A stretch of DNA of 64,000 nt, taken from assembly GCA_002493865.1 (NCBI GenBank), contig DLAC01000010.1:31017-95016 (forward strand), given 5' to 3'. The notes beneath the pieces were generated by a model. That model was not told where the DNA came from and searched no databases. It saw only the letters and a list, made by a program, of their open reading frames with translations. The stretch is from Bacillales bacterium UBA7057. GTDB lineage: Bacteria; Bacillota_I; Bacilli_A; RF39; UBA660. Positions 45,367-46,557 of the stretch are shown piece by piece. Every line of letters starts with the position of its first letter. Position 1 is the first letter of the stretch. Both the position numbers and the translations under genes were made by a program.

Positions 45367-45783
45367 ATGGATGATAAACAGGAATTACTCATTTCAGGAG
45401 TAGAAGATATTGAGGTTATTTTAAGAGAAATTTCTCTTTCTGTTCGTGAAGTATTAGAAACTGTTTCTAATGAAATGACCAAATTACAAGGGGACTCTAT
45501 TCTTTTAGGAGAAGTATCTACCGGTTTACTTGCTAAATTCTCTGAGTTTCAAGAAGAATTTCCACATTTTATTAAAGAAATTGATAATTATTCAAATTTC
45601 ATGATGGAAACATTAAAATCTTATCAGAAAACGGATGACGATATTGAGACAAAAGTAAAGGAAAATTTAAATGCTCAAATTGAGCAATTATCTAAGGCAG
45701 GAGTGCTAAGGAATGCTGGGATTCCGATTGCCCACACTTCCAATTTAGATGACATTGACCGTGAGGAAAATGCTGGTTTATAA
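45367..45783 (+). CDS. stand-alone copy of the effector N-terminal (LXG-like) module
   Basis: ~138 aa from ATG 45367 (MDDKQELLISGVEDIE...). FSEFQEEFPHFIKEIDNYSNFMMETLKSYQKTDDDIETKVKENLNAQIEQLSKAG aligns with the VPRYAEALLEFSKFLSNYVLENYSDTDAEMKAKVEANLAEAIAKLGE segment of the effectors. No C-terminal toxin domain. Confidence 0.5.
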   Translation: MDDKQELLISGVEDIEVILREISLSVREVLETVSNEMTKLQGDSILLGEVSTGLLAKFSEFQEEFPHFIKEIDNYSNFMMETLKSYQKTDDDIETKVKENLNAQIEQLSKAGVLRNAGIPIAHTSNLDDIDREENAGL

Positions 45784-45849
45784 TAAAAAATCTTGTTTTT
45801 AGTATCAATTTGTAAATTCATGGTTAGATAAAATTTTATAGGATAAAAA

Positions 45850-45876
45850 AAAGACATTTCTTTCATGTCTTTTTTC
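45850..45876. terminator. bidirectional rho-independent terminator
   Basis: AAAGACAT-ttctttc-ATGTCTTT flanked by an A-run and a T-run, between convergent genes. Confidence 0.65.
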
Positions 45877-45883
45877 TTTGGCA

Positions 45884-46237
45884 TTAAGCACCAAGATTTC
45901 CAGAATTTTGTAAATCTGATAGGCTTGATTCCATCTGACTTTGTAATTGTTTTGCATCTGTATCTGCTTGTTGATAACTTTGTGCTACATATTGGTCTAA
46001 GAAATCAGCAAATTTTCTGATTGCTTCAATAAATTTTGGAAAGTTTGCTGCTGCTTGATCGATTTTTTCGAAGAAAGCTAGGGAAGCAGCAACTGTTCTA
46101 AATTCTTCATTTGCACAAAGAGATTCAATTCTTTGTTTTGATTTTTGTAAATCAGTTTCCATTTGAGTTGCATATTGTCTTAATAGTTGGGCATTGGATT
46201 GTGCCTCTGATATTGAATATTTTAATCCGTTTTGCAT
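45884..46237 (-). CDS. stand-alone LXG-like N-terminal module (117 aa), higher-GC
   Basis: SLCANEEFRTVAASLAFFEKIDQAAANFPKFIEAIRKFADFLDQYVAQSYQQADTDAKQLQSQ is homologous to the effector N-terminal module. A/Q-rich codon usage with visibly higher GC than flanking DNA. Confidence 0.55.
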   Translation of the reverse strand: MQNGLKYSISEAQSNAQLLRQYATQMETDLQKSKQRIESLCANEEFRTVAASLAFFEKIDQAAANFPKFIEAIRKFADFLDQYVAQSYQQADTDAKQLQSQMESSLSDLQNSGNLGA

Positions 46238-46251
46238 CTTTATTCTCCTTT

Positions 46252-46557
46252 CTAATTTGTACTTAAGTCCTGTTCAGCTCTAGCGCGACGTTCCTGCTCT
46301 CTTTCATCCATTAAATTTGCAGTTTGATCTAATGTATCTGCAATTACACCAAGTGTAGCAGATAATTTTTTAATTTCAGGAACATAAGCGTTAATTGCAT
46401 CAACATAAGCGTTTGCATCCGTACCTTGCCATGCACTTTGTACTGAATTTCCAATGTTTTGTACATTGGTTGCTCCCTGATTAATATTTGTAGCGTCTAC
46501 ATTGCGTACATCACTTGCTACTTGACGTACAGCACTACTACTAAATGAATAATCCAT
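46252..46557 (-). CDS. WXG100-like protein
   Basis: 101 aa with W-x-G at SAWQGTDANAY. The MDYSF start resembles 36720..37025. Higher-GC, co-oriented with 45884..46237. Confidence 0.55.
   Translation of the reverse strand: MDYSFSSSAVRQVASDVRNVDATNINQGATNVQNIGNSVQSAWQGTDANAYVDAINAYVPEIKKLSATLGVIADTLDQTANLMDEREQERRARAEQDLSTN

What the first reader, a model, noticed from the sequence alone, without database searches (positions are those of the whole stretch)
45367..46557. Orphan copies of the effector N-terminal module, including a higher-GC inverted WXG + module pair
45367-45783 (+) and 45884-46237 (-) each encode only the LXG-like N-terminal module (about 138 and 117 aa), with no C-terminal toxin domain. 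The minus-strand pair 46252-46557 (WXG-like, MDYSF start like 36720-37025) plus 45884-46237 is convergent with the rest of the locus. It has visibly higher GC and Ala/Gln-rich codon usage than the ~30% GC surroundings, suggesting a separately acquired or recombined cassette. Polymorphic toxin loci usually carry orphan C-terminal toxin/immunity modules, so orphan N-terminal modules are unusual. They may be adaptor/chaperone derivatives or recombination substrates.
Basis: seen in the sequence. Interest (0 to 1): 0.6.

Follow-up and report, generated by a model that had tools for sequence, protein, structure and literature searches.

The report
Cargo-less type VII secretion carrier proteins
At the end of a type VII secretion locus in an uncultured gut Bacilli bacterium, one small gene is an effector whose cell-wall-cutting toxin domain has been deleted, and the neighbouring inverted gene pair is an old, conserved, vertically inherited pair of small helical secretion proteins, not a foreign cassette.

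Summary
The three ORFs are real, but they are two different things.

**N1 (45367-45783, +)** is a decayed allele of a 277-283 aa effector made of a carrier module, a linker and an M15/VanY peptidoglycan peptidase.
- Close strains keep the long form in the same slot.
- The window has a stop at codon 139 and a deletion of about 359 bp.
- The last 11 codons of the toxin gene survive as untranslated DNA at 45807-45841.
- The module is still under purifying selection (dN/dS 0.11).

**N2 (45884-46237, -)** is not truncated.
- All 11 homologue clusters are exactly 117 aa, down to 51% identity, with an invariant C-terminus.
- dN/dS is 0.04-0.07 against close relatives.
- With the WXG100 gene W3 (46252-46557, -) it forms a two-gene unit with its own promoter-like site. 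The unit sits in the same convergent position in every relative.

**Composition.** GC is only mildly raised (0.347 against 0.311). This comes from Ala/Gln-rich protein. GC3 is below the window mean and codon usage is host-like, so acquisition from outside is not supported.

**The module** is a WXG100-type helical hairpin with an invariant YxxxD motif, not a Pfam LXG domain.

**Best reading (inferred).** W3 and N2 form an ESAT-6/CFP-10-like or PE/PPE-like cargo-free heterodimer exported by this system. This is a new family within a known kind, of moderate interest.

The parts
44910..45365 (+). o44910, a 151-aa WXG100-like protein (W40-K-G42). It sits immediately upstream of N1 (its stop TAG is followed two bases later by the N1 ATG) and is the presumed cognate partner of N1.
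   Evidence: WXG100 hits are sub-threshold: PF06013 E 1.1e-3 and TIGR03930 E 9e-5. It is 151 aa in all relatives and always directly precedes the N1 orthologue.
45367..45783 (+). N1, a truncated allele of a T7SS effector. The carrier module is aa 1-112 (45367-45702). A linker stub is aa 113-138 (45703-45780). Tandem stops TAA TAA lie at 45781-45786.
   Evidence: It is 88% identical to the first 138 aa of the 277-aa P0052, which is module + linker + M15/VanY. L022 has CAA where the window has TAA. Module dN/dS is 0.11 and tail dN is 0.395 against L020. The same 138-aa ORF is found on six independent metagenome contigs.
45784..45806 (+). Degenerate, untranslated remnant of the first codons of the deleted M15 peptidase domain. 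The signal is weak.
   Evidence: The alignment to L022 and L015 continues for about 20 nt past the stop. For the L020 allele the left piece runs colinearly to L022 position 6448.
45807..45841 (+). Untranslated remnant of the last 11 codons plus the stop codon of the M15 effector gene. It reads FVNSWLDKIL* against FANQWLDETL* in L022, in a different frame from N1.
   Evidence: Local alignment to the L015 toxin ORF matches 28 of 34 nt with score 22. The best of 2000 shuffles scored 18 and the best of 3000 random window pieces scored 19. Window 45807-45900 aligns continuously to L022 6800-6893.
45847..45875 (.). A-tract, hairpin and T-tract shared by the converging N1 and N2 transcripts. It is a likely bidirectional intrinsic terminator.
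   Evidence: RNA fold is -9.3 kcal/mol with z -1.83. A hairpin with a different stem sequence occupies the same place in L015 (GATAGA/TCTATC) and L022. The consensus terminator scan did not report it, as the stem has fewer than 3 G-C pairs.
45884..46237 (-). N2, a full-length 117-aa free-standing paralogue of the effector carrier module. It is a WXG100-fold helical hairpin without a WxG motif. Its C-terminus LQNSGNLGA is near-invariant. Its ribosome-binding site AAGGAG lies at 46250-46245.
   Evidence: All 11 homologue clusters are 117 aa at 51-100% identity. dN/dS is 0.04-0.07 against relatives of 89-97% identity. The AF2 model has pLDDT 76.5 with two long helices. Best PDB matches are Firmicute EsxA WXG100 proteins, target-normalised TM-score about 0.8. 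A search of 1.84 billion representatives found one N2 cluster, then effector N-termini, then WXG100 proteins.
45962..45976 (-). YxxxD motif of N2 (Y88-Q-Q-A-D92). A95 and Q99 continue the same helix face.
   Evidence: Y88, D92, A95 and Q99 are invariant in the N2 family. Y and D are invariant across N2, N1 and E1-E3 and conserved in nearly all effector N-termini. The spacing follows the T7SS pattern HxxxD/ExxhxxxH, and the position matches PE25 (Y87), LipY (Y88) and EspC (Y87) as listed in PMC3935865.
46252..46557 (-). W3, a 101-aa WXG100 protein (W43-Q-G45) and first gene of the W3-N2 two-gene unit. It belongs to the same subfamily as W1 (35017-35337) and W2 (36720-37025), which precede effectors E2 and E3. 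Its ribosome-binding site AGGAGG lies at 46570-46565.
   Evidence: PF06013 gives 39.5 bits and TIGR03930 46.8 bits, both above cutoff. W3 against W1 gives E 6e-8 and against W2 E 1e-4, with no match to the core EsxA-like gene 43459-43755. dN/dS is 0.08-0.09. The gap to N2 is 14 nt.
46608..46637 (-). Sigma-70-like promoter candidate for the W3-N2 unit (TTGACC, 18 nt, TATAAT).
   Evidence: It matches 11 of 12 positions and lies about 50 nt upstream of the W3 ATG. This is a consensus match only. The count of such sites in the region is not above the shuffled expectation.
33686..38377 (+). Context: the cargo-bearing paralogues. E1 is 33686-34969, W1 35017-35337, E2 35446-36696, W2 36720-37025 and E3 37040-38377. 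The pattern is a WXG gene followed by a module-plus-cargo gene.
   Evidence: See (E2 carries a sub-threshold Hydrolase_2 match). The effector N-termini align with N2 up to the G-x-[IL]-G boundary where N2 ends.
38578..43194 (+). Context: the EssC-type FtsK/SpoIIIE ATPase with an N-terminal FHA domain, the presumed translocase.
   Evidence: PF01580 E 6e-45 and PF00498 E 1.8e-6.

Best explanation
The interval holds two unrelated outcomes of one design. In this type VII secretion locus, substrates come as a two-gene unit. The first gene is a small WXG100 protein carrying the WxG turn. The second encodes a hairpin module of about 115 aa carrying an invariant YxxxD motif.

The module can carry a peptidoglycan-hydrolase cargo after a G-x-[IL]-G boundary and a linker (E1-E3 and the long form of N1). 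It can also stand alone (N2).

**(a) W3-N2** is the cargo-free version. It is an anciently fixed, vertically inherited, separately transcribed pair. The pair most likely folds into an ESAT-6/CFP-10-like or PE/PPE-like four-helix heterodimer, which would place W3's WxG next to N2's YxxxD. The EssC ATPase would then export it as a substrate in its own right, or as a co-secreted accessory.

**(b) N1** was a full effector (module, linker, M15/VanY peptidase). In this strain it lost its cargo through a nonsense codon and a deletion of about 359 bp. The module survives under purifying selection, so it now behaves like a second cargo-free module, presumably paired with o44910.

**Shown:** homology, length constancy, selection, synteny, host-like composition, fold class, motif conservation and the deletion scars.

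**Inferred:** heterodimer formation, export and any role after export.
For: **N2 and W3**
- N2 is 117 aa in all 11 clusters (51-100% identity), with the C-terminus fixed.
- dN/dS is 0.04-0.07 for N2 and 0.08-0.09 for W3 against relatives of 89-97% identity.
- The convergent W3-N2 pair is present at the same place in every related locus.
- The gap between the genes is 14 nt, both have ribosome-binding sites, and a promoter-like site matches 11 of 12 positions.
- N2 is homologous to effector N-termini (E down to 2e-13 locally; E 4e-13 to 1e-7 across 1.84 billion representatives). It ends exactly at their module boundary.
- The fold is a two-helix hairpin that best matches EsxA-type WXG100 structures. 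12 of 16 modules give sub-threshold WXG100 hits.
- YxxxD is invariant.
- The pattern of a WXG gene followed directly by a module gene occurs four times in the window (W1-E2, W2-E3, o44910-N1, W3-N2). It recurs in relatives.
- Heterodimeric WXG100 proteins are characteristically encoded as two-gene operons (PMC3935865).

**N1**
- Long orthologues of 276-283 aa with M15_4/VanY form 7 clusters at 54-100% identity, in the same slot in L015, L022 and L024.
- The lesions are TAA in place of CAA, a 1-nt indel and a deletion of about 359 bp. The 3' remnant is significant, with 0 of 5000 controls reaching its score.
- Module dN/dS is 0.11 while the tail is relaxed.

**Composition.** GC3 is 0.144-0.167 and codon adaptation is z +1.4 and +1.9.
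Against: - No direct evidence shows that W3 and N2 bind each other or are secreted. A two-chain structure prediction could not be run.
- N2 does not reach the WXG100 gathering score (17.5 against 27.3 bits) and lacks a WxG motif.
- It has no detectable sequence similarity to CFP-10 (E 1.1).
- The YxxxD motif lies 25 residues from the C-terminus rather than near it.
- The gene order (WxG first, YxxxD second) is the reverse of CFP-10/ESAT-6 and PE/PPE.
- The promoter is a consensus match only, and the terminator hairpin is weak (z -1.8).
- For N1, an insertion of the peptidase cassette into a short ancestor cannot be formally excluded from the 3' remnant alone. It is, however, contradicted by the in-frame stop replacing a sense codon and by long forms at 54% identity.
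- The window allele groups with a long allele (99% bootstrap) rather than with the other truncated allele. The history therefore involves recombination or parallel loss and is not resolved.
Confidence: 0.6

Rival explanations
1. W3 and N2 (and the surviving N1 module) are export adaptors or chaperones acting in trans, like Lap1/Lap2 or EsxB/C/D. They would bind the carrier domain of cargo-bearing effectors to complete a composite targeting signal, rather than being substrates in their own right. One candidate client is E1, which has no WXG gene upstream.
For: - E1 (33686-34969) is the only effector without a WXG gene directly upstream.
- Small helical partners are required for LXG toxin export in S. 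intermedius and S. aureus (PMC10765036).
- N2 and W3 are conserved as strongly as the core small proteins.
- Their codon adaptation is high.
Against: - N2 is a paralogue of the carrier domain itself, not of the partner class. It would therefore compete with effectors for W-type partners rather than complement them.
- It has no match to the Lap or YwqH families (TIGR04197 E 0.67; YwqH-like in only 2 of 16 modules at E>=0.018).
- Every other module has its own adjacent W gene.
Confidence: 0.22
2. N2, like N1, is a decayed effector: a pseudogene-like leftover with no function of its own.
For: - It is homologous to effector N-termini and stops at the module boundary.
- N1, only 100 bp away, shows that such truncation does happen in this locus.
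Against: - The length is fixed at 117 aa with an invariant C-terminus across 11 clusters down to 51% identity.
- dN/dS is 0.04-0.07.
- It has its own ribosome-binding site and a partner gene.
- No toxin remnant lies downstream. The terminator follows directly.
Confidence: 0.03
3. The W3-N2 pair is a horizontally acquired or recombined cassette, as the first reader proposed from its GC content.
For: - The segment GC of 0.347 is at the 92nd percentile of same-size windows.
- Its orientation is opposite to the rest of the locus.
Against: - GC3 is below the window mean, and synonymous usage is better adapted than average.
- The GC excess is explained by about 14% Ala.
- The pair is syntenic in all relatives, with divergence similar to neighbouring genes (51-53% identity in L007, against 49-56% for N1 and o44910).
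- No mobile-element genes or flanking repeats were found.
Confidence: 0.03
4. The module-only genes serve as recombination substrates that supply N-terminal sequence for shuffling effector genes.
For: Polymorphic toxin loci do diversify by recombination. E1 and E2 share about 84% nucleotide identity over about 570 nt. The N1 alleles look mosaic.
Against: - N1 and N2 share no nucleotide-level homology with E1-E3. Only matches of 20-30 nt at 70-85% identity are found, which is chance size.
- Protein identity is 25-36%, too low for homologous recombination.
- N2 is under strong purifying selection as a protein.
Confidence: 0.03

Closest known systems
ESAT-6/CFP-10 (EsxA/EsxB) heterodimeric WXG100 pairs of actinobacterial type VII secretion
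   Same: - Two adjacent genes of about 100 aa, both helix-turn-helix.
- One partner carries WxG (W3) and the other carries YxxxD on helix 2 (N2).
- The two-gene arrangement is typical of heterodimers (PMC3935865).
- The pair lies next to an FtsK/SpoIIIE ATPase.
- The N2 model superposes on WXG100 structures.
   Different: - The host is a low-GC Bacilli bacterium, where WXG100 proteins are usually single-gene homodimers.
- The gene order is reversed.
- N2 lacks WxG and falls below the Pfam threshold.
- There is no sequence similarity to CFP-10.
- N2's second helix is longer (residues 50-111).
- Dimerisation is untested.
Mycobacterial PE/PPE pairs, with PE25 (PE domain only) against LipY (PE domain plus lipase cargo)
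   Same: - One hairpin domain carries YxxxD/E at about residue 87-88.
- That domain exists both as a free small protein and as an N-terminal carrier for an enzyme cargo.
- It pairs with a WxG-bearing partner.
- The relation of N2 to E1-E3 and long N1 mirrors that of PE25 to LipY. Motif positions are given in PMC3935865.
   Different: - There is no sequence relationship to PE or PPE.
- The partner here is a 100-aa WXG100 protein, not a PPE domain of about 180 aa.
- The cargoes are peptidoglycan hydrolases.
- No EspG-type chaperone gene is recognisable.
LXG polymorphic toxins with Lap/Wxg or EsxB/C/D partners (TelA-D of S. intermedius, EsaD of S. aureus, YxiD of B. subtilis)
   Same: - An N-terminal helical targeting domain is followed by a variable C-terminal toxin.
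- Small helical partner genes lie directly upstream.
- The genes sit next to essC (PMC10765036).
   Different: - The module here is about 115 aa, not about 200.
- It gives no PF04740 hit.
- It has one upstream partner rather than two or three.
- No immunity gene follows any effector.
- A free-standing copy of the LXG domain itself, conserved as a family, did not turn up in the papers read here.
S. aureus EsxC and EsxD, small non-WXG helical T7SSb substrates
   Same: - They are small secreted hairpins that lack the WxG motif.
- They associate with a WXG100 protein.
- EsxD carries YxxxD/E-like motifs.
   Different: - EsxC and EsxD are not paralogues of the toxin's own targeting domain.
- They act as export factors for EsaD.
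- There is no detectable homology with N2.
Toxin-domain decay and fragmentation in polymorphic toxin loci (orphan C-terminal toxin and immunity cassettes; truncated LrhA in Listeria; fragmented effectors in S. suis)
   Same: N1 shows strain-level presence or absence of a toxin domain, caused by nonsense mutation and deletion in a variable effector slot. Truncated T7SS substrates are documented (PMC10327511; PMC12558993).
   Different: The documented fragments keep the toxin end and lose the targeting end. Here the targeting end is kept, remains under purifying selection, and the toxin is lost.

Membership tests
LXG domain (Pfam PF04740) | A match to the LXG profile at or above the gathering score (26.5 bits) | tested here: not met
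   No PF04740 hit at E<=1 for N1, N2 or effector E3. PF04740 is not among the 25 families listed for the 16 module sequences at E<=0.1.
LXG domain (Pfam PF04740) | A helical domain of about 200 aa at the N-terminus of polymorphic toxins | tested here: not met
   The conserved module is about 115 aa and ends at G-x-[IL]-G. The N-terminal position on cargo-bearing proteins does hold for E1-E3 and long N1.
WXG100 (PF06013 / TIGR03930) | A profile match at or above the curated cutoff | tested here: met
   This row is for W3: PF06013 39.5 against 27.3 bits, and TIGR03930 46.8 against 44.85 bits.
WXG100 (PF06013 / TIGR03930) | A profile match at or above the curated cutoff (N2 and N1) | tested here: not met
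   N2 scores 17.5 bits (E 0.005) against a cutoff of 27.3. N1 has no PF06013 hit. NF035934 gives E 1.3e-7 for N2 and 2.4e-8 for N1, at 32-34 bits against a cutoff of 100. They are superfamily-level relatives only.
WXG100 (PF06013 / TIGR03930) | A helix-turn-helix hairpin fold of about 100 aa | tested here: met
   The AF2 model of N2 has helices at 8-40 and 49-110 in model numbering (which lacks Met1), with pLDDT 76.5. Top Foldseek PDB hits are EsxA/WXG100 proteins with probability 1.00 and target-normalised TM-score 0.78-0.88, though E-values are weak at 0.08 or above.
WXG100 (PF06013 / TIGR03930) | A W-x-G motif in the turn | tested here: not met
   The N2 turn reads L-C-A-N-E-E-F and the N1 turn L-Q-G-D-S, with no Trp. 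W3 does have W43-Q-G45 and o44910 has W40-K-G42.
T7SS substrates carrying the YxxxD/E export motif (CFP-10, PE, EspB/C type) | A conserved Y-x-x-x-D/E on the second helix after the hairpin | tested here: met
   Y88 and D92 are invariant in N2. They are also invariant across N2, N1 and E1-E3 and present in nearly all effector N-termini.
T7SS substrates carrying the YxxxD/E export motif (CFP-10, PE, EspB/C type) | The motif is required for EssC/EccC-dependent export, and the protein is secreted | not testable with these tools
   This needs secretion assays. The organism is known only from metagenomes.
Heterodimeric WXG100 pair | The two genes form a two-gene operon (gap under 80 nt) | tested here: met
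   The gap between W3 and N2 is 14 nt, on the same strand, with a ribosome-binding site before each gene. The criterion comes from PMC3935865.
Heterodimeric WXG100 pair | The two proteins form a 1:1 four-helix bundle | not testable with these tools
No experiment was possible.
Lap1 (DUF3130/TIGR04197) and related LXG-associated partners | A profile match to the partner families | tested here: not met
   TIGR04197 gives E 0.67 for N2. YwqH-like matches only 2 of 16 modules at E>=0.018.
Peptidase M15 (VanY / M15_4) effector | A catalytic domain is present | tested here: not met
   The window's N1 lacks the domain. tblastn with the long form finds only residues 1-130 in the window. Orthologues L015/P0050-P0056 carry PF13539 (E 3e-12) and PF02557 (E 6e-9).

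The most novel reading that the evidence does not exclude
This uncultured Bacilli lineage runs a minimal type VII system: EssC, a YukD-like protein and WXG-type proteins, with no recognisable EssA, EssB or EsaA. Its substrates follow ESX or PE/PPE logic rather than LXG logic. Each substrate would be a heterodimer of a WxG protein and a YxxxD-bearing hairpin. The hairpin acts as a plug-in carrier onto which peptidoglycan-hydrolase cargo is fused or from which it is lost. W3-N2 would be the conserved cargo-free prototype, possibly needed for the machine to work, as EsxA is elsewhere. The absence of immunity genes would mean the hydrolases act on the producer's own wall or spores, or on chemically distinct prey walls.
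Probability: 0.3. Interest if true: 0.55.

Novelty: new member of a known kind. Interest (0 to 1): 0.35.

Why it matters
**Correcting the annotation.** Two neighbouring 'orphan modules' look alike but have opposite histories. One is a recent loss of a toxin domain. The other is an old, selected small protein.

**A natural experiment.** The same carrier hairpin occurs three ways in one locus and among close strains: free (N2), with cargo (E1-E3, long N1) and freshly stripped of cargo (window N1). This could help define the minimal export signal of Firmicute type VII systems. It could also test whether ESX-style WxG plus YxxxD heterodimers operate outside Actinobacteria.

**Scale.** The find is confined to a small clade of uncultured gut Bacilli and fits known principles. 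It is useful but not surprising.

Tried and rejected
- **Foreign origin from GC.** Rejected. GC3, a codon-adaptation index and synteny all point to a resident gene pair.
- **LXG membership.** Rejected by Pfam.
- **Sequence search of N2 against solved structures.** Only a chance-level hit to a Bartonella Bep protein (E 0.0025).
None found, E 1.1. Only the motif-level resemblance stands.
- **DNA repeats linking N1 or N2 to effector genes.** None beyond chance size.
- **Global three-way DNA alignment of the N1 3' region.** It gave an ambiguous placement of the remnant. Local two-piece alignments and shuffling controls resolved it.
- **Bootstrap values for deep nodes of the N1 tree.** Unreliable after re-rooting. 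Only the terminal groupings are used.
- **Source names for these proteins.** None exist in the 15-billion-protein collection.
- **Literature search.** Four searches and five papers found no description of a conserved free-standing copy of an effector targeting domain paired with a WXG100 gene. The search covers open-access papers only.
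Full report
**Setting.** The window comes from an uncultured gut Bacilli bacterium with 31% GC. The nearest public records are MAGs titled 'uncultured Bacilli/Bacillales bacterium'. The finding lies at the 3' end of a type VII secretion locus, which contains:
- three effector genes: E1 33686-34969, E2 35446-36696, E3 37040-38377;
- small WXG100 genes W1 and W2, directly upstream of E2 and E3;
- an EssC-type FtsK/SpoIIIE ATPase with an FHA domain (38578-43194);
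- a small YukD-like ORF;
- five small helical genes (43459-45365);
- then N1 (45367-45783, +), and on the opposite strand N2 (45884-46237) and W3 (46252-46557).

Housekeeping genes (radC, mreC, mreD) follow.

**Observation check.** The ORFs are as described.
- N2 aligns with the first ~115 residues of E1-E3 at 29-36% identity (E 6e-10 to 2e-13 in a small local database).
- N1 is more distant: 25% identity to N2, E 1e-3. A profile-profile comparison of the N2 and N1 families gives 96% probability and E 4.7e-9 over 98 columns.
- W3 passes the WXG100 thresholds of Pfam and NCBIfam. It is closest to W1 and W2, not to the core EsxA-like gene.
- The label 'LXG-like' does not hold at family level. 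No module sequence hits PF04740, while 12 of 16 give sub-threshold WXG100 hits.
- An AlphaFold2 model of N2 (pLDDT 76.5) is a two-helix hairpin. Its best PDB matches are Firmicute EsxA proteins, with target-normalised TM-score about 0.8.

**Composition.**
- The minus-strand pair has GC 0.347 against a window mean of 0.311 (sd 0.028). That is the 92nd percentile, and other windows reach 0.414.
- The excess sits in codon positions 1 and 2. GC3 is 0.144 (N2) and 0.167 (W3), below the mean of 0.214 for long ORFs.
- Ala is about 14% against 4% in the reference ORFs, and Gln is 8-14% against 3%.
- A codon-adaptation index built on the window's own long ORFs puts N2 and W3 above average (z +1.4 and +1.9).

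**N2 and W3.**
- A word-indexed search of 5.8 billion proteins returned 11 clusters, every one exactly 117 aa with full coverage, down to 51% identity.
- The alignment has 42 invariant columns, including the C-terminal L-x-N-x-G-N-x-G-A.
- A full HMMER profile search of 1.84 billion cluster representatives found only 35 proteins. These were one N2 cluster, then proteins of 347-522 aa matched over their first ~117 residues, then ordinary ~100-aa WXG100 proteins.
- Some of the long hits carry sub-threshold Glucosaminidase or Hydrolase_2 domains.
- In all related loci fetched, the WXG gene and the 117-aa gene sit together, converging on the end of the T7SS operon. This holds even where feoAB or a 1064-aa ORF has been inserted nearby.
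- dN/dS against relatives of 89-97% identity is 0.04-0.07 for N2 and 0.08-0.09 for W3.
- The two genes are 14 nt apart, each with a Shine-Dalgarno sequence. A TTGACC-18-TATAAT site lies upstream of W3.
- An A-tract, hairpin and T-tract lies between the converging N1 and N2 ends. It is conserved in position but not in stem sequence among relatives.

Aligned with effector N-termini, N2 stops exactly at the G-x-[IL]-G motif that ends the module. In effectors the linker (…NLDKISxxAQGAL…) begins there.

**N1.**
- In the closest distinct relative (L015), the orthologue is 276 aa: the same module and linker, followed by a Peptidase_M15_4/VanY domain.
- Seven clusters of such long forms exist (277-283 aa, 54-100% identity, full coverage). 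They occupy the same slot after the 151-aa gene in L015, L022 and L024.
- L022 is almost the same strain as the window (N2 98% identical). Its 277-aa protein is 88% identical to the window's N1 through residue 138.
- At the DNA level the window has TAA where L022 has CAA (codon 139), a second TAA, a 1-nt indel, and a gap of about 359 bp corresponding to L022 6441-6799.
- Window 45807-45900 then aligns continuously with L022 6800-6893. That stretch is the last 11 codons of the peptidase gene, its stop, the terminator and the end of N2.
- Against the L015 toxin ORF this remnant matches 28 of 34 nt (score 22). None of 2000 shuffles or 3000 random window pieces reached that score; their maxima were 18 and 19.
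- In L022 the deleted segment is flanked by an imperfect direct repeat (AATCAATTAGTTGATGAA and AATCAATGGTTAGATGAA, read). This suggests a repeat-mediated deletion.
- A second truncated allele (L020, 138 aa, 81% identical) has the same stop codon but a slightly different junction (L022 6449-6811).
- In a tree of the module, the window allele groups with the long P0052 (99% bootstrap), not with L020. Yet the two truncated tails share derived residues. The history therefore involves recombination between alleles or parallel loss, and I could not resolve which.
- After truncation the module remains constrained (dN/dS 0.11 against L020), while the 26-residue tail evolves fast (dN 0.395).
- The 138-aa allele is on six independent contigs, and on about 47 by cluster lookup, so it is not an assembly error.
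- In more distant species the N1 orthologue is a 120-126 aa protein ending at S/A-G-N-I-G. That is the same boundary at which N2 ends.

**Mechanism.**
- Every module carries Y-x-x-x-D on the second helix (N2 Y88-D92). The motif is invariant across N2, N1 and E1-E3, and A95 and Q99 continue the same helix face in N2.
- This is the general T7SS export motif. It sits at the same residue number as in PE25 (Y87), LipY (Y88) and EspC (Y87), according to PMC3935865.
- The gene directly upstream of each module gene encodes a WxG-bearing protein (W1, W2, W3, o44910).
- Heterodimeric WXG100 proteins are characteristically encoded as two-gene operons (PMC3935865).

I therefore infer that each W protein pairs with its module to form a four-helix bundle presenting a composite WxG plus YxxxD signal to EssC. 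On this view W3-N2 is the cargo-free version, and the window's N1 has been reduced to the same state. The homology, motifs, fold, selection and gene order are shown. Binding and export are inferred.

The main rival is that W3-N2 act in trans as export factors for effectors. It is weakened because N2 belongs to the carrier class rather than the partner class.

**Comparison with known systems.**
- Functionally the closest analogues are ESAT-6/CFP-10 pairs and the PE25/LipY relationship in mycobacteria.
- By locus architecture the closest are LXG toxins with Lap or Esx partners (PMC10765036).
- Membership in LXG, Lap1 or strict WXG100 fails for N2 and N1. W3 is a WXG100 member.
- Documented T7SS fragments keep the toxin and lose the targeting domain (PMC10327511; PMC12558993). 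N1 is the reverse.
- In four searches and five papers I found no description of a conserved free-standing paralogue of an effector's own targeting domain. The library covers open-access papers only.

**Verdict.** The finding is real but splits in two. N1 is a toxin-domain deletion allele, which is ordinary gene decay with an interesting retained carrier. W3-N2 is a conserved WXG-type two-gene unit native to the genome. It is a new family within a known kind, of moderate interest. The broader locus may deserve more attention than these two ORFs: a minimal apparatus, non-LXG carriers, only peptidoglycan-hydrolase cargo and no immunity genes.

Noticed in passing
window 30142-45365: The T7SS locus has EssC, a 91-aa YukD-like ORF (43175-43450) and several WXG-type genes, but no Pfam-recognisable EsaA, EssA or EssB. 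Two unassigned genes precede E1: 31710-32618 (zinc ribbon plus two hydrophobic segments) and 32646-33584 (312 aa, no family). They could be novel membrane or accessory components.
   Followed up: partly
window 33686-38577; L022 6001-7230; L015 10354-11243: No immunity-like ORF follows any effector (E1, E2, E3 or the long M15 form of N1). Every recognisable cargo domain is a peptidoglycan hydrolase: Hydrolase_2/SleB-like in E2, M15/VanY in long N1, Glucosaminidase in P0019. This is unusual for antibacterial T7SS toxins. It raises the possibility that the enzymes act on the producer's own wall or spores.
   Followed up: partly
window 33659-34316 and 35419-36058: E1 and E2 share about 83-84% nucleotide identity over about 570 nt of their 5' halves (70% protein identity over 247 aa) and then diverge. 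This is a genuine recombination substrate between effector genes.
   Followed up: partly
L007 10411-13605; L010 10411-13599; L011, L012, L008, L009: In relatives at 51-66% identity, a 1062-1064 aa ORF with no Pfam family lies between the short N1 orthologue and N2, on the operon strand. It is absent from the window. Its function is unknown. It might be a cargo delivered in trans or an unrelated insertion.
   Followed up: partly
window 45367-45783 compared with L020 6001-6417 and L022 6001-6834: The two truncated N1 alleles share the stop at codon 139 and derived tail residues. However, the window's module groups with a long allele (99% bootstrap), and the deletion junctions differ by 8-12 nt. 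This suggests allele mosaicism by recombination, or parallel loss at an imperfect direct repeat.
   Followed up: partly
window 20373-22514 and 24027-25922: Two large ORFs carry phage tail-fibre or baseplate domains (DUF859 and Gp10_C) about 10 kb upstream of the T7SS locus. They may be a prophage remnant or a tailocin-like element.
   Followed up: no
window 37613-37868 and 37928-38149: E3 contains internal tandem or dispersed repeats: a 31-nt unit encoding PSGMG(N/D)DPRY three times, and a 105-nt unit twice. Its C-terminal half is low-complexity and Ser/Thr-rich, with no recognisable domain.
   Followed up: no
window 44910-45365: o44910 is 151 aa in every relative. It combines a WxG hairpin with a long, highly conserved basic C-terminal helix (…NEHNEKRRRREALK…). 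This is an atypical extension for a WXG100-like protein.
   Followed up: no
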